From the NCBI GenBank assembly GCA_048882505.1, contig JBHLRO010000041.1:1-12816 (forward strand): a stretch of 12,816 nucleotides of DNA. Direction: 5' to 3'. The position numbers and the translations under genes were made by a program. Positions 2,781-12,475 of this stretch are shown here, in pieces. The number at the start of each line of letters is the position of its first letter. Position 1 is the first letter of the stretch. The stretch comes from Candidatus Thorarchaeota archaeon (GTDB taxonomy: Archaea > Asgardarchaeota > Heimdallarchaeia > Hodarchaeales > Hodarchaeaceae). The notes under the pieces are model-generated. The model did no database searches. It saw only the letters and a list, made by a program, of their open reading frames with translations, and was not told where the DNA came from.

Positions 2781-4478
2781 ATGTGGAGTCGGGTGTCAAC
2801 GCTCGGTCTAAAAGATTACCAAGAGAACCGGGGAGTGGATGGAGTCTATGACAAAAGAAATACCTTAAATAATCTAACGGGTAAACAGTGGCTTTTTTCA
2901 ACAAAAACAGTAATTCCTAAGGCATATTCCAGCGAACGAAGGCAAGGAAATATCGAATTCAAATCTCCTCTCCTTCCTGAAGCATTTTGTCAAGAAATCA
3001 TAGAAACCTTCTCCAAACCCGGAGAAACAGTCCTGGATCCTTCTCCTGGATTGGGAACTACAATGCTAGGAATCCACCTTGCCAATTCAGGTGAGAGCGG
3101 TCCAAACAGAAAATACATAGGCATTCAATCTGATGACGATCTGATCAAGGAAAATCTTTCTCTGCTCAGACAAAGAAACGAATTGTCAGGAGAATTGATG
3201 AGAGAAACCATGGACAGTTTGGCTAATCTTCCGCAAAATTCTGTCGATCTTATATTCTCAGACATTCCTATTGTAAGCAACACCTCTTTATTAGATCCCG
3301 ATCGGGCTCAATTATCTCCCTCTGTTCATTCTGAGGCAAAAGTGCAACTCGTTCATGAACTGTTAGCCTTTTTCTGTCCCGTTATACTGGAAGCAGTAAA
3401 AAAACTGAAGATCAATCGCTATCTCGTCCTAACTCTTCCTGAAACCATTGAATCGGGATACCCCGCCTTGAATTTTACCCTATCCTCTCTTTTCGTTCAT
3501 AATTTCCAGCTAGTTGGACTACCTTTGAAGGCAGAAAGAATTTGGTTTATTCCAGAACCGCAGAAGGGATTTGAGGAGTTTATAACGATTTCACGACGAA
3601 TCCTTGTATTTAGAAACGAAGAAGGATTTTTGTACAGGCCCAAGCAATTCCCTGCCCTTTTTAATGGCCAAATCCCAATAGGACGGACTGAGATTATTCA
3701 TAAGGCATATCCTCCCTCGTTTAACCATAAACTTCGAAGTCAACATGGCGGAATGAAACCTCCCGAACTATGTCAATTACTCATCGAAAGATATTCTGAT
3801 CATCGTAACGATCTCGTGTTGGATCCGTTTGTTGGTGTAGGAGGAACGCTCTTAGGTGCAAGTCTTTCAGGACGGAAGGCTATTGGAATTGATATTAACG
3901 CACAATGGAGAGAGATTTATCATCAGGTAACACATGAATCGGGGTTCCCTGAACAGGAGTTCATTGTTGGAGACTCACGTGCAGGAATTCCCGACGTTAT
4001 TTCAGATGGTTCAGCTGGTCTCATATTAACAGATGTACCATATTGGGCTATGGATAAATTGAAAAAAACTCGTGGTCGTTATTCGCGTGCAGGAGAAGAA
4101 TCAAAGGGAAAACTACATTCATCGCTAAAAAGGTTTAACCAAGCGGACACAATTTCGCTAGGAGAGTGGAAATCATTACTCAACGATGTATTCACACTTT
4201 GTTACCCGAAGTTGGCCCCCAACAAATATTGCGTGGTATTTATAGGGAATATGTACCGAACCATTATTGAAGAACGAGCGGGGAAGGCAAGAAAAATTGG
4301 CAAATATCTTATGCTTTCTTCAATATTGGCTCGGATCCTTTTAGAAATAGGATATCAGTTCGAAAGAGAGATCATTTGGTATTCCCCCGATAAATCCCTT
4401 CACGTTTTTGGATACCCTTATTCTTATATCCCTAGTATTGTGCATCAAAGCATCCTTGTATTCAATAAGGGGAAGTAA
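2781..4478 (+). CDS. Tandem two-domain N6-adenine/N4-cytosine-type (amino) methyltransferase; N-terminal copy degenerate
   Basis: Copy 2 has VLDPFVGVGGT (motif I, 3822-3842), IGIDIN, GDS and LILTDVPY (motif IV variant, 4032-4043). Copy 1 has VLDPSPGLGTT (3036-3056) and LIFSDIPI (3261-3272). N-terminal NTLNNLTGKQW segment. Alternative start: GTG at 2793. Confidence 0.82.
   Translation: MWSRVSTLGLKDYQENRGVDGVYDKRNTLNNLTGKQWLFSTKTVIPKAYSSERRQGNIEFKSPLLPEAFCQEIIETFSKPGETVLDPSPGLGTTMLGIHLANSGESGPNRKYIGIQSDDDLIKENLSLLRQRNELSGELMRETMDSLANLPQNSVDLIFSDIPIVSNTSLLDPDRAQLSPSVHSEAKVQLVHELLAFFCPVILEAVKKLKINRYLVLTLPETIESGYPALNFTLSSLFVHNFQLVGLPLKAERIWFIPEPQKGFEEFITISRRILVFRNEEGFLYRPKQFPALFNGQIPIGRTEIIHKAYPPSFNHKLRSQHGGMKPPELCQLLIERYSDHRNDLVLDPFVGVGGTLLGASLSGRKAIGIDINAQWREIYHQVTHESGFPEQEFIVGDSRAGIPDVISDGSAGLILTDVPYWAMDKLKKTRGRYSRAGEESKGKLHSSLKRFNQADTISLGEWKSLLNDVFTLCYPKLAPNKYCVVFIGNMYRTIIEERAGKARKIGKYLMLSSILARILLEIGYQFEREIIWYSPDKSLHVFGYPYSYIPSIVHQSILVFNKGK
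2898..4475 (+). repeat. Internal protein-level duplication in the methyltransferase (about aa 40-280 and aa 300-565)
   Basis: Paired segments: IPKAYS/IHKAYP, LPEAFCQEIIETFS/PPELCQLLIERYS, INRYLVL/PNKYCVV, ERIWF/REIIWY, RILVFRN/SILVFNK. The DNA 10-mer TAAGGCATAT is retained at 2918-2927 and 3701-3710. Confidence 0.85.
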
Positions 4479-6596: not shown

Positions 6597-7490
6597 CTAA
6601 TGGAATGAACGGGCTTTAGGTGGATTTTGGGAGTAATCATAGAATCCGATTCCTGATTTCCGCCCGAAGTGGCCGGCCCTAACCATTTTACGCAGTAGAG
6701 ATGGTACGCGATACTTTGAATCTTGGAATTCAGAGTAGAGATAATCTCCAATAAACAATGTTGTGTCAAGACCCACAAAATCCAACAACGTAAATGGCCC
6801 CATAGGATGATTCAATCCAAGCGTTATAGCTTTATCCATATCTTCCACAGTAGTGACGCCTTCTTGCAAGGCAGTGACAGCTTCTAGGAAAAAGGGAAGC
6901 AATAAACGGTTAACGGCAAATCCAGGGGCTTCATTAACCAGAACTGTTTCCTTTCCGAGTTTTTTTGAAAGTTCATCAATAAACAGATACGTTTCCTCGG
7001 AAGTCTCATATCCTTTGATTATTTCAACCAAGCGCATTACAGGGACAGGATTGAAAAAATGCATACCAATGAACTTGTCTGGGCGCTTTGTAGCTGCCGC
7101 CATGTCAGTGATGCTGATTGATGATGTATTGGAAGCGAAAACAACTTCAGGCTTACAGATCGCATCAATCTCAGCAAAAACTTTACGTTTAAGGTCACGA
7201 TTTTCAATTATTGCTTCGATAATTACATCTGCATCCTTTAATGCTTCATTTAGATCCACTACTCCGTTGATCCGCTGAAGAACTGCATCCATTTCATCTT
7301 GGGTTATTTTTCCCTTTTTAACGCCTCGAGTCAGATTTTTCTTAATCATATTGAGGCCATTCTCCACAAATTTATCCTCGATGTCTCGCATAGCAACCTG
7401 AAACCCAGCTTGGGCGCATGCCTGAGCTATTCCATTCCCCATTAATCCTGCACCAAGGATGCAGATTTTTTTTACATCTTTCACTCTCAT
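6597..7490 (-). CDS. hbd: 3-hydroxybutyryl-CoA / 3-hydroxyacyl-CoA dehydrogenase
   Basis: Rossmann motif GAGLMGNGIAQ, EAIIENRDLK, SNTSS, catalytic GMHFFNPVP, PGFAVNRLL, HPMGPF and GRKSGIGFYDY; 297 aa. Confidence 0.95.
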   Translation of the reverse strand: MRVKDVKKICILGAGLMGNGIAQACAQAGFQVAMRDIEDKFVENGLNMIKKNLTRGVKKGKITQDEMDAVLQRINGVVDLNEALKDADVIIEAIIENRDLKRKVFAEIDAICKPEVVFASNTSSISITDMAAATKRPDKFIGMHFFNPVPVMRLVEIIKGYETSEETYLFIDELSKKLGKETVLVNEAPGFAVNRLLLPFFLEAVTALQEGVTTVEDMDKAITLGLNHPMGPFTLLDFVGLDTTLFIGDYLYSEFQDSKYRVPSLLRKMVRAGHFGRKSGIGFYDYSQNPPKARSFH

Positions 7491-7620
7491 TCTCTAATAA
7501 CTTCCTCATGCTCATTTTAACGATGTGCATGTGAAAAAAACGATCTAGATACTATTATTTGAATTTTTCGGAAGATTATAAGCCGTATTGTATTCTTTAG
7601 GTATTCATCTTGACAGGAAC

Positions 7621-7634
7621 GAAAAGAAAACAAG
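7621..7634 (-). terminator. U-rich tract downstream of the DUF92 gene
   Basis: The minus strand reads CTTGTTTTCTTTTC about 60 nt after the TAA. Confidence 0.25.
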
Positions 7635-7695
7635 CGGCACACAAGCAAAACAGCCAATACAGCGAACTTATTAATTATTTCTTGGATTTATGGGG

Positions 7696-8595
7696 TTAAA
7701 ATCGAATTAGAACAATAATTAGGATACCTAGCATCGCTACTAAGAATGCACTCGAAACATTAACGATATCGTTATTGATGATAATATTTCCCCGAATGAG
7801 TGTTGTTGAATTCCCACATCGGGGATGCGGATTTGATTCCGTCTCTTTAGCACATTGCTCACAATAATAGATGCCTTGAATTACCGCACCTTCAATCGAG
7901 TCAACCACTGATCCAATCAGCCCTGCAAGAGTTATCACCCCCATTGCGAGTCCTATCATAAAAATATTGTGAGAACCAGGAGGAATAGTTAGATAAGCGC
8001 TGAAATAAACTCCTGCAATCACCATCGCTCCAATTAAGGACGCAACCAATCCATCAATAGTGATTCCTCCCGAGGTACCTTGATCCACCTGCTTTTTGAG
8101 ATTTGTTACTAGTCTTGGCTTTCGATTAGATAGCAATCCAATTTCTGTTGCCCAGGTATCCGCATTATGGGCAGCAAAGGCAATAAAAACCCCTATAAAG
8201 AAAGGGCTTGTAATTTGTGGGATTACTGTTCGATCTGTCAAAAGTAGAGGCAAGAGGTCAAAAATTCCATATCCAACAACAAGAATGAGTGCTACTGTTC
8301 CATTTGCTACGACCTGCATTGCATCCCGCTTTGTTGCCCCTTTCTCAAAATCGAGAGAGGCACTGGTTTTCTCAATTGATTTGTATTTCGAAAGAACAGA
8401 GGCACTGATAAAAAAAAAGACCATAGCCAACCAGAAAAAGGGTTGAATTATAAAAAAGAATATACCGAGAAAAGCAGCGACTCCTATTCCCCCACGGGTT
8501 AATAATTTTTTTTGCAATGAAACAGCCAATATCGGAATGTTGAAGATCACCGCCAGGGGGACCATCATAATTAGATAAGGAATTATGGAACTCAA
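7696..8595 (-). CDS. DUF92 / TMEM19 family membrane protein with a Cys/His metal-binding insert
   Basis: KRDAMQVVANG, ADTWATEIG, GTSGGIT..G, GSVVDS..GA..Q and NDIVN; multiple TM segments; CEQC..H..C insert (7863-7816). TTG start with GGAG 7 nt upstream. Confidence 0.9.
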   Translation of the reverse strand: MSSIIPYLIMMVPLAVIFNIPILAVSLQKKLLTRGGIGVAAFLGIFFFIIQPFFWLAMVFFFISASVLSKYKSIEKTSASLDFEKGATKRDAMQVVANGTVALILVVGYGIFDLLPLLLTDRTVIPQITSPFFIGVFIAFAAHNADTWATEIGLLSNRKPRLVTNLKKQVDQGTSGGITIDGLVASLIGAMVIAGVYFSAYLTIPPGSHNIFMIGLAMGVITLAGLIGSVVDSIEGAVIQGIYYCEQCAKETESNPHPRCGNSTTLIRGNIIINNDIVNVSSAFLVAMLGILIIVLIRF

Positions 8596-8643
8596 AGGGA
8601 ATCTCCGCAGTTACATCTTTTCCATGAAAGATTAATCGAGAGA

Positions 8644-10242
8644 TCAATCATTCCAATCGATTTCAGCGTTGAATCGTTCTCGTAGGACTCGGTGAATTAC
8701 TTTCCCTGATCCAGTACGGGGCATTTCCTCGTATCCAATGAAAAGTACCTTTTTGGGAACCTTGAACCGCGCCAGTCTCTCGTAACAAAAATCTCGAAGG
8801 TTCTCGGCCAAACTTTCTGATGGAGAGCGCCCTGATGCCAAGATACATACAGCCGTCACTGCTTCTCCCCATTTGGGGTGATTTAGCCCGACCACCGCGC
8901 ATTCAATGACTGAGGGGTGGGTTGTAATAGCTTTTTCAACCTCTGAAGGGAATATATGCTCCCCACCAGAGATTATCATGTTCGCCTTTCTATCAACGAG
9001 GTAATAATACCCATCGGAATCACGACGTGCCATATCCCCGGCGCTAAAAAAACTTCCGTCCATGGCCTCCCTTGTTTTGTTCGGAAGATTGTAATAATCG
9101 GTTAACTGCATTGGGCTGCGGGAAAAGAGCTCCCCAATTTCGCCCTCAGGGGTAGGCTGGCGGGTCACGGGATCAAGAATCCGGATCTTATCAGACCCAA
9201 AACACTCCTGGCCGATCGATCCCGCCTTAGCAAACTGATCCTCTGGCCTCAGAATGGTTACCAATCCTGCTTCAGTGGACCCATAGGCTTCAAAGAGCTC
9301 AACGCCCTTGAACAGTTCCATCACACCCCTCTTCATTTCCTTAGTAGCTGGAGCCGATGATGTGAGTAATTTGGTTACAGAAGAAAGGTCATATTTGGTT
9401 TTAATTTCATCAGAGAGATTCAAGATTAGGTTATAATGTGTAGGGATTAACGAGGTAAAAGTAATCTTTTCTTGGGCGAAAATCTGAAGCAATTCTTCAG
9501 GGTCAAAGTTGTACTCGCGATGAATGTAGCAAGCAGCTCCGATATAAGTAAAGACAAATGCATAGAACGTGGAATTTACGTGACTAAGCGGCATAAGTAC
9601 TAATCCGTAATCCTTGGGAGTAAAAGAATATTCAGCCGCATTAATCAGAAAAAAGGCAATATATGAACGGTGAGACCGGACAACCCCCTTGGGTTTTCCA
9701 GTTGTCCCACTGGTATACAACAAAATCCAAGTATCCTCTGGGTCAATTGAAATCTCGGGGCAGTCCTCACTGCCTGCACCCACGATATCTTCAAAATAAC
9801 TCCAACCATCGCCTATTGGAATATCGCCAATTACGACGCTCTGAAGAATGTCCAGTCCGAATTCGACCACAAGATCCCAATTATCGAGTGTGGTCTGGTA
9901 ATAGCGTTGTTCAATCATCACCATTTTACATTCTGCGTTCTGTACAATCCAATATAGATCCTCGGGTAACAGTCGAAAATTTAAAGGAACAATGATCAAT
10001 CCTGCTTTTGCCGCAGCAATATAGATCTCAGCGAACTCTAAACAGTTATTGGCAAGTACAGCAATTTTATCGCCTTTTTTCAAACCTCTTGACAACAATC
10101 CATTCGCCAATTTATTTGTACGTAAGTTAAATTCCCTGAAGGTAAGAGAACGTTTAGCATCTTTGAATGCCAGCTTATTAGGCGCCTTTTCCGCATTAAT
10201 TTGAACTAATTCACCTAGATGTAACCAAGTCAAAAGCCTCAA
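8644..10242 (-). CDS. AMP-forming acyl-CoA synthetase (long-chain fatty acid-CoA ligase-like, ANL superfamily)
   Basis: LYTSGTTGKPKGV (A3), YGSTEAG (A5), GDMARRDSDGYYYLVDRK..MIISGGE.IFPSEVE (A7/A8) and RTGSGKV (A10). TTG start. Confidence 0.93.
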   Translation of the reverse strand: MRLLTWLHLGELVQINAEKAPNKLAFKDAKRSLTFREFNLRTNKLANGLLSRGLKKGDKIAVLANNCLEFAEIYIAAAKAGLIIVPLNFRLLPEDLYWIVQNAECKMVMIEQRYYQTTLDNWDLVVEFGLDILQSVVIGDIPIGDGWSYFEDIVGAGSEDCPEISIDPEDTWILLYTSGTTGKPKGVVRSHRSYIAFFLINAAEYSFTPKDYGLVLMPLSHVNSTFYAFVFTYIGAACYIHREYNFDPEELLQIFAQEKITFTSLIPTHYNLILNLSDEIKTKYDLSSVTKLLTSSAPATKEMKRGVMELFKGVELFEAYGSTEAGLVTILRPEDQFAKAGSIGQECFGSDKIRILDPVTRQPTPEGEIGELFSRSPMQLTDYYNLPNKTREAMDGSFFSAGDMARRDSDGYYYLVDRKANMIISGGEHIFPSEVEKAITTHPSVIECAVVGLNHPKWGEAVTAVCILASGRSPSESLAENLRDFCYERLARFKVPKKVLFIGYEEMPRTGSGKVIHRVLRERFNAEIDWND

Positions 10243-10392: not shown

Positions 10393-11826
10393 ATGAGCAT
10401 GACTGACTGTTCTGATCATGATTTAGTAGATGTGGCTATTGTAGGAGCTGGGCCTGCCGGATTGACCGCAGCAATGTATGCAGCCAGAGCCGAACTTAAT
10501 ACCGTTGTATGGGGTGATCCTTACGCAAGCCTGTTAGCCAAAGCTCGCGTTGTAGAAAATTACCCAACCTGGACCAACCCCGAGACTAAAGGACTAGAAC
10601 TCATAGATAAGTTTATTGAACATGCAACCCAGTACGGGGCGGTCTTGGATGAACAAGAAATAAGGCAAATCGTTCGGGGAGAAGGAGAACACAGCGCTTT
10701 TCAACTTTTTGATACTGAAGGGAGGGCCACATGCGCCAATACTGTTATTATAGCTTCTGGAACGAAACACAAGAGACTGGGGATCAAGGGCGAAGAGGAA
10801 TTTTATGCACGCGGGGTGGGCTACTGTACGATTTGTGATGGTCCTTTATATAAGGAGGCTCCAGTTGCCATCGTTGGATTTGGCAATGAGGCCGCAACTG
10901 CCGCTCTCAGGATGGCTGATATTGCAAATGAGGTCTTTCTTCTCGCTACCAAAGCGCGAATAGGGGCCGATCCAGCGTTAGTTGATGAACTAGATAATAC
11001 TAAGAATATCGTCTTTTGTGAAAATATTAAACCCCTGGAAATCATAGGAGGAGATGATAAGACTGTGACAGCCTTCAAGTTCGATATTGATGGGATGGTA
11101 AAAACCATTCAGGTAAAAGCAGTATTCGTGGAAGTCGGAGTAACACCTTCCTCGGCTCTGGTCGCTGGCCTTGGAGTGGAACTAGATGGACAGTTTATTC
11201 AAGTTGGATCGATGCAAACTACTAATATAAATGGCGTTTTTGCGGCGGGGGACGTAACCGGGGGGATTGCACGTCAGGCCATAGTATCAGCGGGAGATGG
11301 TGCCCGTGCGGCTATCGGAGCAATTGATTATCTAAAAAGAGTAGGATTAAGTTCTAAAAAGCTTAAAACAATCCAATGGGGATTTACGAAGGTCAAAGTG
11401 AGCACTCCTACGGCAACGGATCAACCTGCTGTTATAAGTGAATTATACGCCTATGTCCACGCTAACAAAGGATTCGTCGCATCTTATGACCGCTATGCGC
11501 CACGAATGGAAACAATCGCCTCCATGAGAGAGATATCTAAGCTTAAGGGACATCAAATTACCGTAACTATCGTCTCGGCCCACTGGTGTCCCGATTGTCG
11601 ACGTGGTGTCCCAAAAATGGCCCGAATCGCGGAATATCTTCCAGAGTGGGAATTTCACGTGGAAAATCGCGATTCAAATGGAATTCGGGAAAAATATAAT
11701 GTAAGAAAAATCCCAACGTTCATAATAAGTAGTAATGGAAAGGAATTAGGCCGTATTATTGAAGTTCCTAAACTTGGAAGCTTCGAAGAGGACTTACTCG
11801 CTATTGTTAAGGGAGAATATCAATAG
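10393..11826 (+). CDS. Thioredoxin reductase (TrxB-like flavoprotein) fused to a C-terminal thioredoxin domain
   Basis: GAGPAG, VENYP, active-site CTIC (10825-36), GVFAAGD and RQAIVSAGDG. These are followed by a linker and a Trx fold with WCPDC (11584-98) and the cis-Pro motif KIPTF. The start may be the ATG at 10399. Confidence 0.92.
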   Translation: MSMTDCSDHDLVDVAIVGAGPAGLTAAMYAARAELNTVVWGDPYASLLAKARVVENYPTWTNPETKGLELIDKFIEHATQYGAVLDEQEIRQIVRGEGEHSAFQLFDTEGRATCANTVIIASGTKHKRLGIKGEEEFYARGVGYCTICDGPLYKEAPVAIVGFGNEAATAALRMADIANEVFLLATKARIGADPALVDELDNTKNIVFCENIKPLEIIGGDDKTVTAFKFDIDGMVKTIQVKAVFVEVGVTPSSALVAGLGVELDGQFIQVGSMQTTNINGVFAAGDVTGGIARQAIVSAGDGARAAIGAIDYLKRVGLSSKKLKTIQWGFTKVKVSTPTATDQPAVISELYAYVHANKGFVASYDRYAPRMETIASMREISKLKGHQITVTIVSAHWCPDCRRGVPKMARIAEYLPEWEFHVENRDSNGIREKYNVRKIPTFIISSNGKELGRIIEVPKLGSFEEDLLAIVKGEYQ

Positions 11827-11845: not shown

Positions 11846-12475
11846 TTATCGCGTTAGATTTAGCCTTTGCTCCCATGAATCGATTTCATCTAATACCTCC
11901 TCCAAATACTTGATATTCTCTGACCTTAATTCGCGGCAAAACTTAGAGATGTCATATAGTAGTTTAGAAGACTGAATAGTATCCGCGAGGTCATCACGGA
12001 ATGCTTCAATCAAATTTGGAATGCTTTCGGGTTTTTCCAGCCTTTCCTCCCATAATCGTGAGATAGTTTCCCGTAACGACTGAATTTCAATCCGAAGGCT
12101 ACCCACTTCGGTTGCTGACTGTACAGGAGTAAGTGTTCCCTCCAAGCGTTTCCTAATTTGCTTGATCAGACGATTAATGGCATCGTTCCGATTCTTTGCA
12201 AGGCCTGTGGAAACCCAATTCTCTGCAACTACTTCGATGAGCTGAAAGACAGCCGCATCCTCATTACCTTGAATTTCGGGAAGATAATGGAAAAGCCCCA
12301 GCTTGGTAACGACGAAACGAAAGTTCGCACTGATATACTGACGCTCACGTTTCGTAAATTCGATCTGCTTTAACAGGTGGCGGAACTCCGAAACGTCCAT
12401 CCGGCCAGATTGATACGCAGGGCCTATACGAGGCTTAATTTTTTCAACTACCTGATCTACGACTTTCAAGCTCAA
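11846..12475 (-). CDS. Hypothetical helical protein with a coiled-coil segment
   Basis: 209-aa ORF with protein-like composition, a TTG start and a TATA-like box just upstream. Heptad-like LRIEIQSLRETISRL. I do not recognise the family. Confidence 0.75.
   Translation of the reverse strand: MSLKVVDQVVEKIKPRIGPAYQSGRMDVSEFRHLLKQIEFTKRERQYISANFRFVVTKLGLFHYLPEIQGNEDAAVFQLIEVVAENWVSTGLAKNRNDAINRLIKQIRKRLEGTLTPVQSATEVGSLRIEIQSLRETISRLWEERLEKPESIPNLIEAFRDDLADTIQSSKLLYDISKFCRELRSENIKYLEEVLDEIDSWEQRLNLTR

What the first reader, a model, noticed from the sequence alone, without database searches (positions are those of the whole stretch)
10393..11826. Single-chain thioredoxin reductase-thioredoxin that lacks the NADPH-specificity motif
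Seen: intact FAD motifs and CTIC. GxGxxA survives as GFGNEA, with an acidic residue where S/T is usual. The HRRxxxR 2'-phosphate-binding motif is replaced by ATKARIG, and the usual GGQL is replaced by ASLL. A QWG aromatic tail (11374-82) follows the reductase, then a linker and a WCPDC thioredoxin. Known: NTRC and the Mycobacterium leprae hybrid are TrxR-Trx fusions but use NADPH, while reductases lacking HRR use ferredoxin, F420H2 or other donors, and some carry an aromatic C-terminal tail over the flavin. Inference: an NTRC-like self-contained thiol relay driven by a non-NADPH donor in an archaeon. I do not know of a described example of this combination.
Basis: partly seen in the sequence, partly recalled or inferred. 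Interest (0 to 1): 0.72.

Follow-up and report, generated by a model that had tools for sequence, protein, structure and literature searches.

The report
Single-chain thioredoxin reductase-thioredoxin, non-canonical donor site
This Asgard-archaeal gene fuses a thioredoxin-reductase-like flavoenzyme to its own thioredoxin. The fusion is real and conserved, the reductase lacks the usual NADPH-recognition motif, and sequence alone does not show where its electrons come from.

Summary
ORF 10393-11826 (+) encodes a 477-aa protein with three parts:
- a low-Mr thioredoxin-reductase (TrxR) core: GAGPAG, C145-T-I-C148, GFGNEA, and ATKARIG in place of HRRxxxR;
- a conserved tail ending in Q328-W329-G330;
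- a Thioredoxin_9 domain with WCPDC.

The fusion is not an assembly artefact. About 50 sequence clusters from independent assemblies share the architecture. They come from Heimdall-type and other Asgard archaea and from Chloroflexota.

In a tree the fused family is one clade (support 100). It nests (97) among standalone 299-310-aa archaeal TrxR-like proteins that also lack HRRxxxR. QWG, both CxxC pairs and a replacement motif T-[KR]-x-R-L-G are invariant or nearly so.

The same genome also encodes a canonical HRR-type TrxR, so this gene is a specialised paralogue. It occurs patchily: about 10 of 301 Asgard genomes sampled.

The inference of a non-NADPH donor is plausible but unproven. GxGxxA survives, two basic residues follow strand beta2, and Trp tails also occur on HRR-containing TrxRs. 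I favour a pyridine-nucleotide-independent donor: ferredoxin about 0.35, F420H2 about 0.15-0.2. NAD(P)H stands at about 0.3.

I found no paper describing this family. It is a new variant of a known kind, of moderate interest.

The parts
10393..11826 (+). Whole gene: 477-aa TrxR-like flavoprotein fused to a thioredoxin (stop codon included). Homologues begin at the equivalent of M3 (MTDC...), so the true start may be 10399.
10393..11343 (+). Low-Mr thioredoxin-reductase-like core (residues 1-317): an FAD domain and an inserted 'NADPH-type' Rossmann domain
   Evidence: Pfam Pyr_redox_2 13-299. PDB 3cty E 6e-50. AF2 model pLDDT 84.5, last helix 296-317. Foldseek TMt 0.8-0.85 to TrxR and AhpF structures.
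10444..10461 (+). FAD-binding GxGxxG (G18-A-G-P-A-G23)
   Evidence: invariant or nearly invariant
10525..10536 (+). A45-S-L-L48 in place of the canonical GGQL. The family consensus is G-D-P-Y-x-[SG]-Q-L, shared with the standalone HRR-less clade.
10825..10836 (+). Redox-active disulfide of the reductase, C145-T-I-C148, within the invariant Y-C-T-x-C-D-G
10876..10893 (+). Retained glycine-rich motif G162-F-G-N-E-A167 (family G-[FH]-G-x-E-A)
   Evidence: G162 46/46, F163 32/46 (H 9), G164 43/46, E166 42/46, A167 43/46
10945..10965 (+). A185-T-K-A-R-I-G191, replacing HRRxxxR after strand beta2. The family motif is [SAG]-[TSN]-[KR]-x-[RK]-[LI]-G-A-[DE].
   Evidence: T186 29/46, K187 28 plus R 10, R189 37 plus K 4, G191 39
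11344..11382 (+). Conserved basic tail G318-L-S-x-x-K-L-K-T-x-Q328-W329-G330. QWG is invariant. It lies upstream of the Thioredoxin_9 domain and is absent from the standalone relatives.
11383..11439 (+). Variable, low-complexity linker (residues 331-349)
   Evidence: no conserved column; pLDDT below 50 for 328-345
11440..11823 (+). Thioredoxin_9-type thioredoxin domain (residues 350-477), including its N-terminal helices (L351, Y354, D358, F361, Y368)
   Evidence: Pfam PF14595 E 1.4e-12. PDB thioredoxins to E 5e-10. Aligns with two standalone Thioredoxin_9 paralogues of the same genome.
11584..11598 (+). Thioredoxin active site W398-C-P-D-C402. The cis-Pro motif I440-P-T442 follows at 11710-11718.
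   Evidence: W398, C399, D401, C402, P441 invariant

Best explanation
The gene encodes a self-contained disulfide-reducing relay on one polypeptide.

Inferred path, by homology with low-Mr TrxR, NTRC and AhpF: a donor reduces the FAD. The FAD reduces the C145/C148 disulfide on the mobile Rossmann domain. That dithiol reduces the C399/C402 disulfide of the tethered Thioredoxin_9 domain, probably across the homodimer. The thioredoxin then reduces client disulfides. A peroxiredoxin is a plausible client class.

The reductase belongs to an archaeal clade that lost HRRxxxR and the GG of GGQL. In the fused family the site was rebuilt as T-[KR]-x-R-L-G, and a basic tail ending in an invariant Q-W-G was added.

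I read this as electron input other than canonical NADPH. My favoured donor is reduced ferredoxin, with W329 capping the flavin in trans and the basic tail helping to dock the acidic ferredoxin, as in Gloeobacter FFTR. F420H2 is the second choice.

My estimates:
- real functional TrxR-to-Trx relay: about 0.9
- donor not NADPH at a canonical site: about 0.65-0.7
- ferredoxin specifically: about 0.35
- F420H2: about 0.15-0.2
For: Shown:
- Intact ORF and domain pair.
- Both CxxC pairs, the FAD motifs and QWG are invariant in 46 homologues.
- The fused family is monophyletic (SH-aLRT 100). It nests (97) in a clade of standalone proteins that all lack HRRxxxR. HRR-bearing enzymes, including own-genome paralogue C30, fall outside.
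- The genome keeps a canonical GGGNSA/HRRDQLR TrxR, so this gene is a specialised extra.
- QWG lies 12 residues after the last core helix. It is upstream of the Thioredoxin_9 domain as delimited by standalone paralogues, so it belongs to the reductase tail.

From literature:
- In GvFFTR a conserved tail Trp (W315) stacks on the re-face of the partner monomer's FAD and is required for ferredoxin binding (PMC8154056).
- The HRR-less TrxRs whose donor is reported in the papers I read use NADH (Thermoplasma), F420H2 (M. jannaschii) or ferredoxin, none NADPH (PMC6262447, PMC9025218).

Context hints:
- Ferredoxin-reducing enzymes sit directly upstream on the same strand in two lineages: POR in two related Heimdall contigs and AFOR in another.
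- A peroxiredoxin gene lies 4 nt downstream in one bacterial member.
Against: - GxGxxA is strictly conserved here and in the sister clade. Cyanobacterial FFTR and DDOR lost it (PMC9025218). This argues for a bound nucleotide-type ligand.
- Two conserved basic residues and a Thr or Ser after beta2, with no acidic residue, resemble NADPH 2'-phosphate pockets of related flavoproteins (my knowledge of the superfamily, not tested).
- By sequence the core is nearer to Thermoplasma TrxR (174 bits) and AhpF (171) than to FFTRs 6gna (126) or 5j60 (117).
- W-containing tails also occur on HRR-bearing TrxRs.
- The AF2 monomer leaves residues 328-345 unplaced (pLDDT below 50), so stacking on the flavin is not shown.
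- Gene neighbourhoods are otherwise not conserved.
Confidence: 0.55

Rival explanations
1. It is an NAD(P)H-dependent TrxR-Trx fusion, functionally an archaeal and Chloroflexota analogue of NTRC. Only the 2'-phosphate pocket was remodelled: T186, K/R187 and R189 replace R176, R177 and R181 (E. coli numbering). The tail Trp is displaced by the nicotinamide, as the C-terminal aromatic residue is in ferredoxin-NADP reductases.
For: - GxGxxA is invariant.
- T-[KR]-x-[RK] is conserved and there is no acidic residue at the end of beta2.
- The closest solved relative, Thermoplasma TrxR, lacks HRR but uses NADH (PMC6262447).
- [SV]-W-G tails coexist with HRR and GGGDSA in other TrxRs.
- Other paralogues in the same genome already show divergent motifs: IIRSGEPR and YRGPKEKMR.
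Against: - No HRR-less low-Mr TrxR in the papers I read uses NADPH (PMC6262447, PMC9025218).
- NADH users (Thermoplasma TrxR, AhpF) carry Glu at the end of beta2, where this family has Ala, Ser or Gly (alignments).
- The genome already has a canonical NADPH-type TrxR.
- The equivalent of R181 is Gly in 39 of 46 sequences.
Confidence: 0.3
2. It is an F420H2-dependent enzyme, a DFTR-like reductase with its thioredoxin attached. The retained glycine-rich loop and the basic residues would bind the phospholactyl-oligoglutamate tail of F420.
For: - M. jannaschii DFTR sets the precedent of an HRR-less TrxR using F420H2 (PMC6262447, PMC8498797).
- CofD and CofE are present above cut-off in this genome and in all five other fusion-bearing Asgard genomes tested.
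- The named sister sequences come from Methanothrix and Asgard, lineages known to make F420 or to carry its genes (Asgard: PMC8498797; Methanothrix: my knowledge).
- Retention of GxGxxA fits a phosphate-bearing cofactor.
Against: - CofD is nearly universal in the class (77 of 83 genomes), so co-occurrence says nothing.
- CofH was not found in this 94.5%-complete genome.
- DFTR is reported only from Methanococcales (PMC8498797).
- I could not place a DFTR sequence in the tree.
- A Trp tail is not known for DFTR.
Confidence: 0.17
3. The fusion is an artefact, a decaying gene, or a non-catalytic thioredoxin-fold appendage, so no relay operates.
For: - structure prediction leaves the linker disordered.
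- The gene is rare: found in only 1 of 20 other species of the same genus.
Against: - The same architecture occurs in about 50 clusters from NCBI, JGI, ENA and Logan assemblies.
- All four catalytic cysteines, the cis-Pro and the FAD motifs are invariant.
- A contig from an independent study bridges the core and the QWG tail (X2 record 6, 11138-11426).
Confidence: 0.03

Closest known systems
NTRC (NADPH-thioredoxin reductase C of chloroplasts and cyanobacteria) and the Mycobacterium leprae TrxR-Trx hybrid
   Same: Order of domains (low-Mr TrxR, linker, C-terminal thioredoxin) on one chain, and the presumed FAD-to-CxxC-to-CxxC relay. Known fused forms (NTRC, AhpF) serve peroxiredoxins. One bacterial member of this family sits 4 nt upstream of a peroxiredoxin gene.
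   Different: - NTRC has GxGxxA plus HRRxxxR and uses NADPH. Its thioredoxin is WCGPC-type.
- Here HRRxxxR is absent, the thioredoxin is Thioredoxin_9-type (WCPDC), and an invariant QWG tail precedes the linker.
- The NTRC reductase domain (7p9d) scores lower than Thermoplasma TrxR (147 against 174 bits).
- Other fused TrxR-Trx proteins in the databases (P0150, P0159 and others, 30-32% identity) keep GGGDSA and lack QWG.
- The fusion therefore appears to be independent.
Cyanobacterial ferredoxin-dependent flavin thioredoxin reductase (GvFFTR, formerly DTR; PDB 5j60)
   Same: A low-Mr TrxR fold without HRRxxxR. A conserved Trp sits in a short tail after the last helix: W315 in GvFFTR (PMC8154056) and W329 here, 12 residues after the helix end.
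   Different: - GvFFTR lacks GxGxxA/G (PMC9025218); this family keeps it.
- GvFFTR is not fused to a thioredoxin.
- Sequence similarity is only moderate (117 bits).
- Stacking of W329 on the FAD and ferredoxin use are untested.
Thermoplasma acidophilum TrxR (PDB 3cty)
   Same: Best solved sequence match (E 6e-50, about 36% identity). It is archaeal, lacks HRRxxxR and keeps a glycine-rich motif.
   Different: TaTrxR has GG in the FAD loop, GGGNSG, and Glu at the end of beta2 (IIEY), and is NADH-dependent (PMC6262447). It has no QWG tail and no fused thioredoxin.
Uncharacterised standalone HRR-less TrxR-like proteins of Asgard archaea and Methanothrix (299-310 aa; for example P0057, P0079)
   Same: Sister grade in the tree (support 97). 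They share G-[DN]-x-Y-x-S-Q instead of GGQL, G-[YFH]-G-x-x-A-A, and the loss of HRRxxxR.
   Different: They have no tail, no QWG and no thioredoxin domain. After beta2 they have one basic residue followed by acidic ones (for example T-K-E-E-L-K). None is characterised, so they give no functional label.
AhpF (alkyl hydroperoxide reductase subunit F)
   Same: A TrxR-like core fused to a thioredoxin-fold module. It is the second-best PDB sequence hit (E 3e-49) and the top Foldseek hit.
   Different: AhpF carries a tandem thioredoxin-fold module at the N-terminus, uses NADH (Glu at the end of beta2) and belongs to a separate family. TIGR03140 scores 203 bits against a cut-off of 503.

Membership tests
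Low-Mr thioredoxin reductase (TrxB, TIGR01292) | Two-Rossmann-domain fold with an FAD GxGxxG and a GD motif | tested here: met
   GAGPAG 18-23 and FAAGD 283-287. Pyr_redox_2 E 1e-31. Foldseek TMt up to 0.85 to TrxR structures.
Low-Mr thioredoxin reductase (TrxB, TIGR01292) | Redox-active CxxC in the pyridine-nucleotide domain | tested here: met
   C145-T-I-C148, invariant in 46 homologues
Low-Mr thioredoxin reductase (TrxB, TIGR01292) | NADPH site: GxGxxA/G plus HRRxxxR | tested here: not met
   GFGNEA is present but HRRxxxR is replaced by ATKARIG. The R181 equivalent is Gly in 39 of 46 sequences.
Low-Mr thioredoxin reductase (TrxB, TIGR01292) | Score above the curated equivalog cut-off (343.45 bits) | tested here: not met
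   257.8 bits. Own-genome paralogue C2 scores 373.
NTRC | C-terminal thioredoxin fused to a low-Mr TrxR | tested here: met
   Thioredoxin_9 at 365-460 after the TrxR core
NTRC | NADPH-dependent reductase domain (HRRxxxR) and a WCGPC thioredoxin; common descent with cyanobacterial and plant NTRC | tested here: not met
   There is no HRRxxxR, and the active site is WCPDC of Thioredoxin_9 type. The reductase nests among archaeal HRR-less proteins. No NTRC reference sequence was included in the tree, so descent is judged from motifs and PDB scores only.
Ferredoxin-dependent flavin TrxR, cyanobacterial type (GvFFTR/DTR) | Loss of the NADPH-binding GxGxxA/G motif | tested here: not met
   G162 is invariant and G164 and A167 are each in 43 of 46. 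The criterion is taken from PMC9025218.
Ferredoxin-dependent flavin TrxR, cyanobacterial type (GvFFTR/DTR) | [quoted passage not shown] | tested here: inconclusive
   An invariant W329 lies in a conserved tail. Its position in 3D was not obtained: the monomer model has pLDDT below 50 there.
Ferredoxin-dependent flavin TrxR, cyanobacterial type (GvFFTR/DTR) | Reduced ferredoxin as electron donor | not testable with these tools
   Only context hints exist: POR or AFOR upstream in two lineages.
F420H2-dependent TrxR (DFTR) | F420H2 as donor; orthology with M. jannaschii MJ1536 | not tested
   No DFTR sequence could be fetched as a reference. CofD and CofE are present, but they are near-universal in the class.
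NADH-dependent TrxR-like enzymes (Thermoplasma TrxR, AhpF) | Acidic residue at the C-terminal end of strand beta2 | tested here: not met
   The alignments show Glu in 3cty (IIEY) and in AhpF (LLEF), where this protein has Ala185. The family has S, A or G there.
Thioredoxin_9 (PF14595) thioredoxin-fold domain | Score above the Pfam gathering cut-off; WCxxC and cis-Pro | tested here: met
   48 bits against a cut-off of 25. WCPDC and I-P-T are invariant. The domain aligns with two standalone Thioredoxin_9 paralogues carrying WCGDC and WCFDC.

The most novel reading that the evidence does not exclude
This is a pyridine-nucleotide-independent counterpart of NTRC. A ferredoxin-driven (or F420H2-driven) flavin thioredoxin reductase carries its own thioredoxin. 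An invariant Trp tail gates the flavin and recruits the donor. The gene has been exchanged between Chloroflexota and Heimdall-type Asgard archaea. It would link low-potential anaerobic metabolism directly to thiol repair or peroxide defence in one polypeptide.
Probability: 0.5. Interest if true: 0.6.

Novelty: new variant of a known kind. Interest (0 to 1): 0.5.

Why it matters
Thioredoxin systems are classified by their electron source: NADPH, ferredoxin through FTR or FFTR, F420H2, or NADH. A conserved fused enzyme without the NADPH-specificity motif would add a new combination. It would show how anaerobic archaea close to the eukaryotic stem, and Chloroflexota, connect central redox carriers to disulfide reduction. 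The family is small, well defined by motifs and soluble, so the donor question can be tested directly with recombinant protein. The invariant QWG tail gives a clean mutational handle on how flavin-capping tails work in this enzyme superfamily.

Tried and rejected
- **Complex prediction**, reductase core 1-335 against Trx domain 346-477 with FAD: 'no answer', score 0.00. Not evidence either way.
- **AF2 monomer**: core and Trx domain are confident, but tail 328-345 has pLDDT below 50. W329 stacking could not be assessed. No dimer-with-FAD coordinates were obtainable.
- **The search for related loci** on genome contigs with the standalone HRR-less alignment A3. The patterns chosen were generic (SYCxxCDG, GAGPAG). 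The 80 loci are ordinary TrxRs from many phyla. This was useless for finding M. jannaschii DFTR or delimiting the clade.
- **Reference sequences** (MjDFTR, CaFFTR, GvFFTR, DDOR, NTRC) could not be obtained as ids, so there is no tree against characterised classes.
- **PDB search with the tail alone**, residues 280-350: matches stop at the core helix and nothing matches the tail.
- **PDB searches with two standalone sisters**, P0079 and P0057: closest to ordinary NADPH TrxRs, so no functional label.
- **F420 co-occurrence**: CofD and CofE are present in all fusion-bearing genomes, but also in 77 of 83 genomes of the class. Uninformative.
- **Gene neighbourhood**: no neighbour is conserved across lineages. 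The small ORFs next to the gene in L010 and L014 are not ferredoxins.
- **Papers not held**: PMC5087728 (DFTR), PMC6304961 (clostridial FFTR), PMC5579543 (TaTrxR re-examination). Their content is cited only through PMC6262447, PMC8154056 and PMC9025218.
- **The look-up of sequencing runs**: no RNA holder listed. Read laying gave only fragmentary contigs outside the probable source sample.
- **E166 in GFGNEA** as evidence against nucleotide binding: considered and rejected, because GGGDSA is canonical in NADPH enzymes (my knowledge of the family).
Full report
**1. The observation**

The window has GC of 39-44%. It contains one uninterrupted + strand ORF at 10393-11826, which translates to 477 residues.
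- GAGPAG (18-23)
- ASLL (45-48)
- C145-T-I-C148
- G162-F-G-N-E-A167
- A185-T-K-A-R-I-G191
- Q328-W329-G330 (nt 11374-11382)
- W398-C-P-D-C402

Pfam reports Pyr_redox_2 at 13-299 (E 1e-31) and Thioredoxin_9 at 365-460 (E 1.4e-12), with the general Thioredoxin model at 387-457. NCBIfam's TrxR equivalog TIGR01292 matches end to end but scores 258 bits against a cut-off of 343. The protein is therefore TrxR-like but outside the curated family.

The gene is monocistronic. It diverges from an acyl-CoA ligase gene (8644-10242, minus strand) and converges on an unannotatable 209-aa ORF (11846-12475, minus strand).

**2. The fusion is real and conserved**

A search of 5.8 billion proteins returned about 50 clusters of 463-487 aa that cover 96-100% of the query and carry the same Pfam pair. 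They come from NCBI, JGI, ENA and Logan assemblies.

The names given by the sources are Heimdallarchaeota (91% identical, P0002), Kariarchaeaceae, Hermodarchaeota, Promethearchaeota, Ardenticatenaceae and Chloroflexota. Two members (P0003, P0011; about 615 aa) carry a second, degenerate Thioredoxin_9 domain.

At 50% clustering the family collapses to two full-length representatives, so it is small and tight. Contigs from an independent study bridge the reductase core and the QWG tail. Assembly error is excluded.

**3. What is conserved**

In 46 aligned fused proteins (46-91% identity to the query) the following columns are invariant:
- D13, G18, G20 and P21 (FAD motif)
- Y144-C145-T146, C148, D149 and G150
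- G162, R173, Q295, G301 and G303
- K315
- Q328-W329-G330
- W398, C399, D401 and C402
- P441

The segment 315-330 reads K-x-L-G-[LV]-S-x-x-K-L-K-[TS]-x-Q-W-G. It is followed by about 20 unconserved residues.

After strand beta2 the family motif is [SAG]-[TSN]-[KR]-x-[RK]-[LI]-G-A-[DE]:

| Position | Counts in 46 sequences |
|---|---|
| T186 | T 29 |
| K187 | K 28, R 10 |
| R189 | R 37, K 4 |
| G191 | G 39 |

ASLL is specific to this orthologue pair. The family has x-[SG]-Q-L preceded by G-D-P-Y.

**4. Position among TrxR-like proteins**

I aligned the reductase cores of the 121 best database hits (five partial sequences left out) and three own-genome paralogues, and built a tree from them.
- The 50 QWG-bearing proteins form one clade (SH-aLRT 100).
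- Together with 46 standalone proteins of 299-320 aa they form a clade with support 97. The named ones are Borrarchaeum, Promethearchaeota, Heimdallarchaeota and Methanothrix.
- Members of this clade share G-[DN]-x-Y-x-S-Q in place of GGQL, and G-[YFH]-G-x-x-A-A. They lack HRRxxxR.
- HRR-bearing enzymes lie outside.
- The standalone relatives have no tail.

Within the fused clade, sequences whose names or gene contexts are bacterial are basal. They include P0045 (Ardenticatenaceae), and P0040, P0044 and P0032, which have bacterial-type neighbours. All named Asgard sequences form a nested clade of 32 rows (support 100). This points to transfer between Chloroflexota and Asgard archaea. The direction depends on the root, which I did not test.

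**5. The genome**

The window is contig C41 of a 4.3-Mb assembly that is 94.5% complete. It encodes three more TrxR homologues:
- C30, canonical: GGGNSA and HRRDQLR.
- C2: 373 bits, motif YRGPKEKMR.
- C9: an N-terminal glutaredoxin-like WCRDC domain fused to a TrxR with IIRSGEPR.

The studied gene is thus an additional, specialised paralogue. Two standalone Thioredoxin_9 proteins (WCGDC, WCFDC) exist in the genome. They align with residues from about 342 to 477 of the fusion, including its N-terminal helices. QWG therefore belongs to the reductase tail and not to the thioredoxin domain.

In a sample of 301 genomes of the phylum, full-length or fragmentary fused homologues occur in about 10. 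Only 1 of 20 other species of the same genus has one. This is a patchy accessory gene.

**6. Structure**

AlphaFold2 with the 46-row alignment gives mean pLDDT 84.5. The reductase core is confident, with its last helix at 296-317, and so is the thioredoxin domain (350-477). Residues 328-345 are below pLDDT 50.

Foldseek finds AhpF and many TrxRs at E of about 1e-33 to 1e-30, with TM-scores of 0.8-0.85 normalised to the target. A monomer model cannot show a tail that acts in trans, so the Trp-on-flavin idea remains untested.

**7. The electron donor**

*From the literature I read:*
- HRR-less low-Mr TrxRs whose donor is reported use NADH (Thermoplasma) or F420H2 (M. jannaschii) (PMC6262447), or ferredoxin (clostridial and cyanobacterial FFTR) (PMC8154056, PMC9025218).
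- In GvFFTR a conserved tail Trp (W315) stacks on the re-face of the partner monomer's FAD. It stabilises the semiquinone and is required for ferredoxin binding (PMC8154056).

*For a ferredoxin-type mechanism here:*
- An invariant Trp lies 12 residues after the last helix, in a basic tail.
- The tail was acquired specifically by the fused clade.
- HRRxxxR is lost.
- POR (two related Heimdall contigs) or AFOR (another lineage) lies immediately upstream on the same strand.

*Against it:*
- GxGxxA is strictly retained, whereas cyanobacterial FFTR and DDOR lost it (PMC9025218).
- The conserved T-[KR]-x-R with no acidic residue looks like a 2'-phosphate pocket.
- PDB similarity is higher to TaTrxR and AhpF than to FFTRs.
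- [QSV]-W-[GS] tails also occur on HRR- and GGGDSA-bearing TrxRs such as P0111 and P0215.

NADH is disfavoured because TaTrxR and AhpF have Glu at the end of beta2, where this family has Ala, Ser or Gly.

F420H2 cannot be excluded. CofD and CofE are present here and in five other fusion-bearing genomes. They are also near-universal in the class (77 of 83), and CofH was not found here.

My estimates are ferredoxin about 0.35, NAD(P)H about 0.3, F420H2 about 0.15-0.2, and other donors the remainder.

**8. The acceptor**

Both known fused TrxR-type enzymes (NTRC, AhpF) serve peroxiredoxins. In one bacterial member (P0040) an AhpC/TSA gene starts 4 nt downstream. It has an in-frame TGA at the W-x-V-W-C position, so it is probably a selenoprotein. 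This is a single case, and other neighbourhoods differ. A dedicated peroxiredoxin-reductase role is a reasonable but weakly supported guess.

**9. Comparison and novelty**

The architecture matches NTRC. The loss of HRR matches TaTrxR, DFTR and FFTR. The Trp tail matches GvFFTR. No known family has all three, and several membership criteria fail (see the membership table). Four literature searches found no description of this family. I therefore class it as a new variant of a known kind.

It is a clean, testable candidate for a pyridine-nucleotide-independent single-chain thioredoxin system. The key claim, the donor, rests on inference.

Noticed in passing
own genome, contig C9:29312-30622 (minus strand; outside the window): A second single-chain fusion occurs in the same genome. 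An N-terminal glutaredoxin/NrdH-like domain (WCRDC) is joined to a TrxR core with GGGNSA and IIRSGEPR, about 417 aa in all. Similar Glutaredoxin plus Pyr_redox_2 proteins appear among the hits (P0114, P0117).
   Followed up: partly
L019:7427-7924 (+), 4 nt downstream of fused homologue P0040: An AhpC/TSA peroxiredoxin-like gene was called as two ORFs because of an in-frame TGA at ...GEW[TGA]VWC.... Read as Sec, it matches PF00578 at E 1e-27. It is probably a selenocysteine peroxiredoxin partnered with the fused reductase.
   Followed up: partly
P0003 (L016:329-2173) and P0011: Variants of about 615 aa carry a second Thioredoxin_9-like domain. Its WCPDC is degenerate (C-R-H-S-R-E-C). It may be a regulatory or docking module.
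   Followed up: no
P0111 (Gottesmanbacteria), P0215, P0142, P0216, P0166: These standalone TrxRs have short C-terminal tails ending in [QSV]-W-[GS]. Several of them have canonical HRR and GGGDSA motifs. Trp tails therefore recur in this superfamily independently of the loss of the NADPH motif.
   Followed up: partly
window 6597-10242 (minus strand): Three co-oriented genes: acyl-CoA ligase (AMP-binding), DUF92 membrane protein and 3-hydroxyacyl-CoA dehydrogenase. An AMP-binding enzyme also neighbours the fused gene in the Ardenticatenaceae contigs (L020, L021), there together with an MBOAT gene.
   Followed up: no
window 11846-12475 (minus strand): A 209-aa ORF with no Pfam hit. An unannotated 207-aa gene sits in the same position in the 91%-identical relative's contig (L009:2448-3071).
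   Followed up: no
own genome (whole): CofD and CofE are found above cut-off, but there is no match to the CofH model in a 94.5%-complete assembly. This may reflect FO salvage, a divergent FO synthase or an assembly gap.
   Followed up: partly
window 2781-4478 (+): A 565-aa protein with three separate N6_N4_Mtase (DNA methylase) matches. It looks like a tandem or duplicated methyltransferase. A related Mtase also lies near fused homologue P0010 (L013:1-428).
   Followed up: no
tree: Within the fused clade the apparently bacterial (Chloroflexota-like) sequences are basal, and all named Asgard sequences form one nested clade. This points to inter-domain transfer of the whole fusion. The direction was not tested.
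   Followed up: partly
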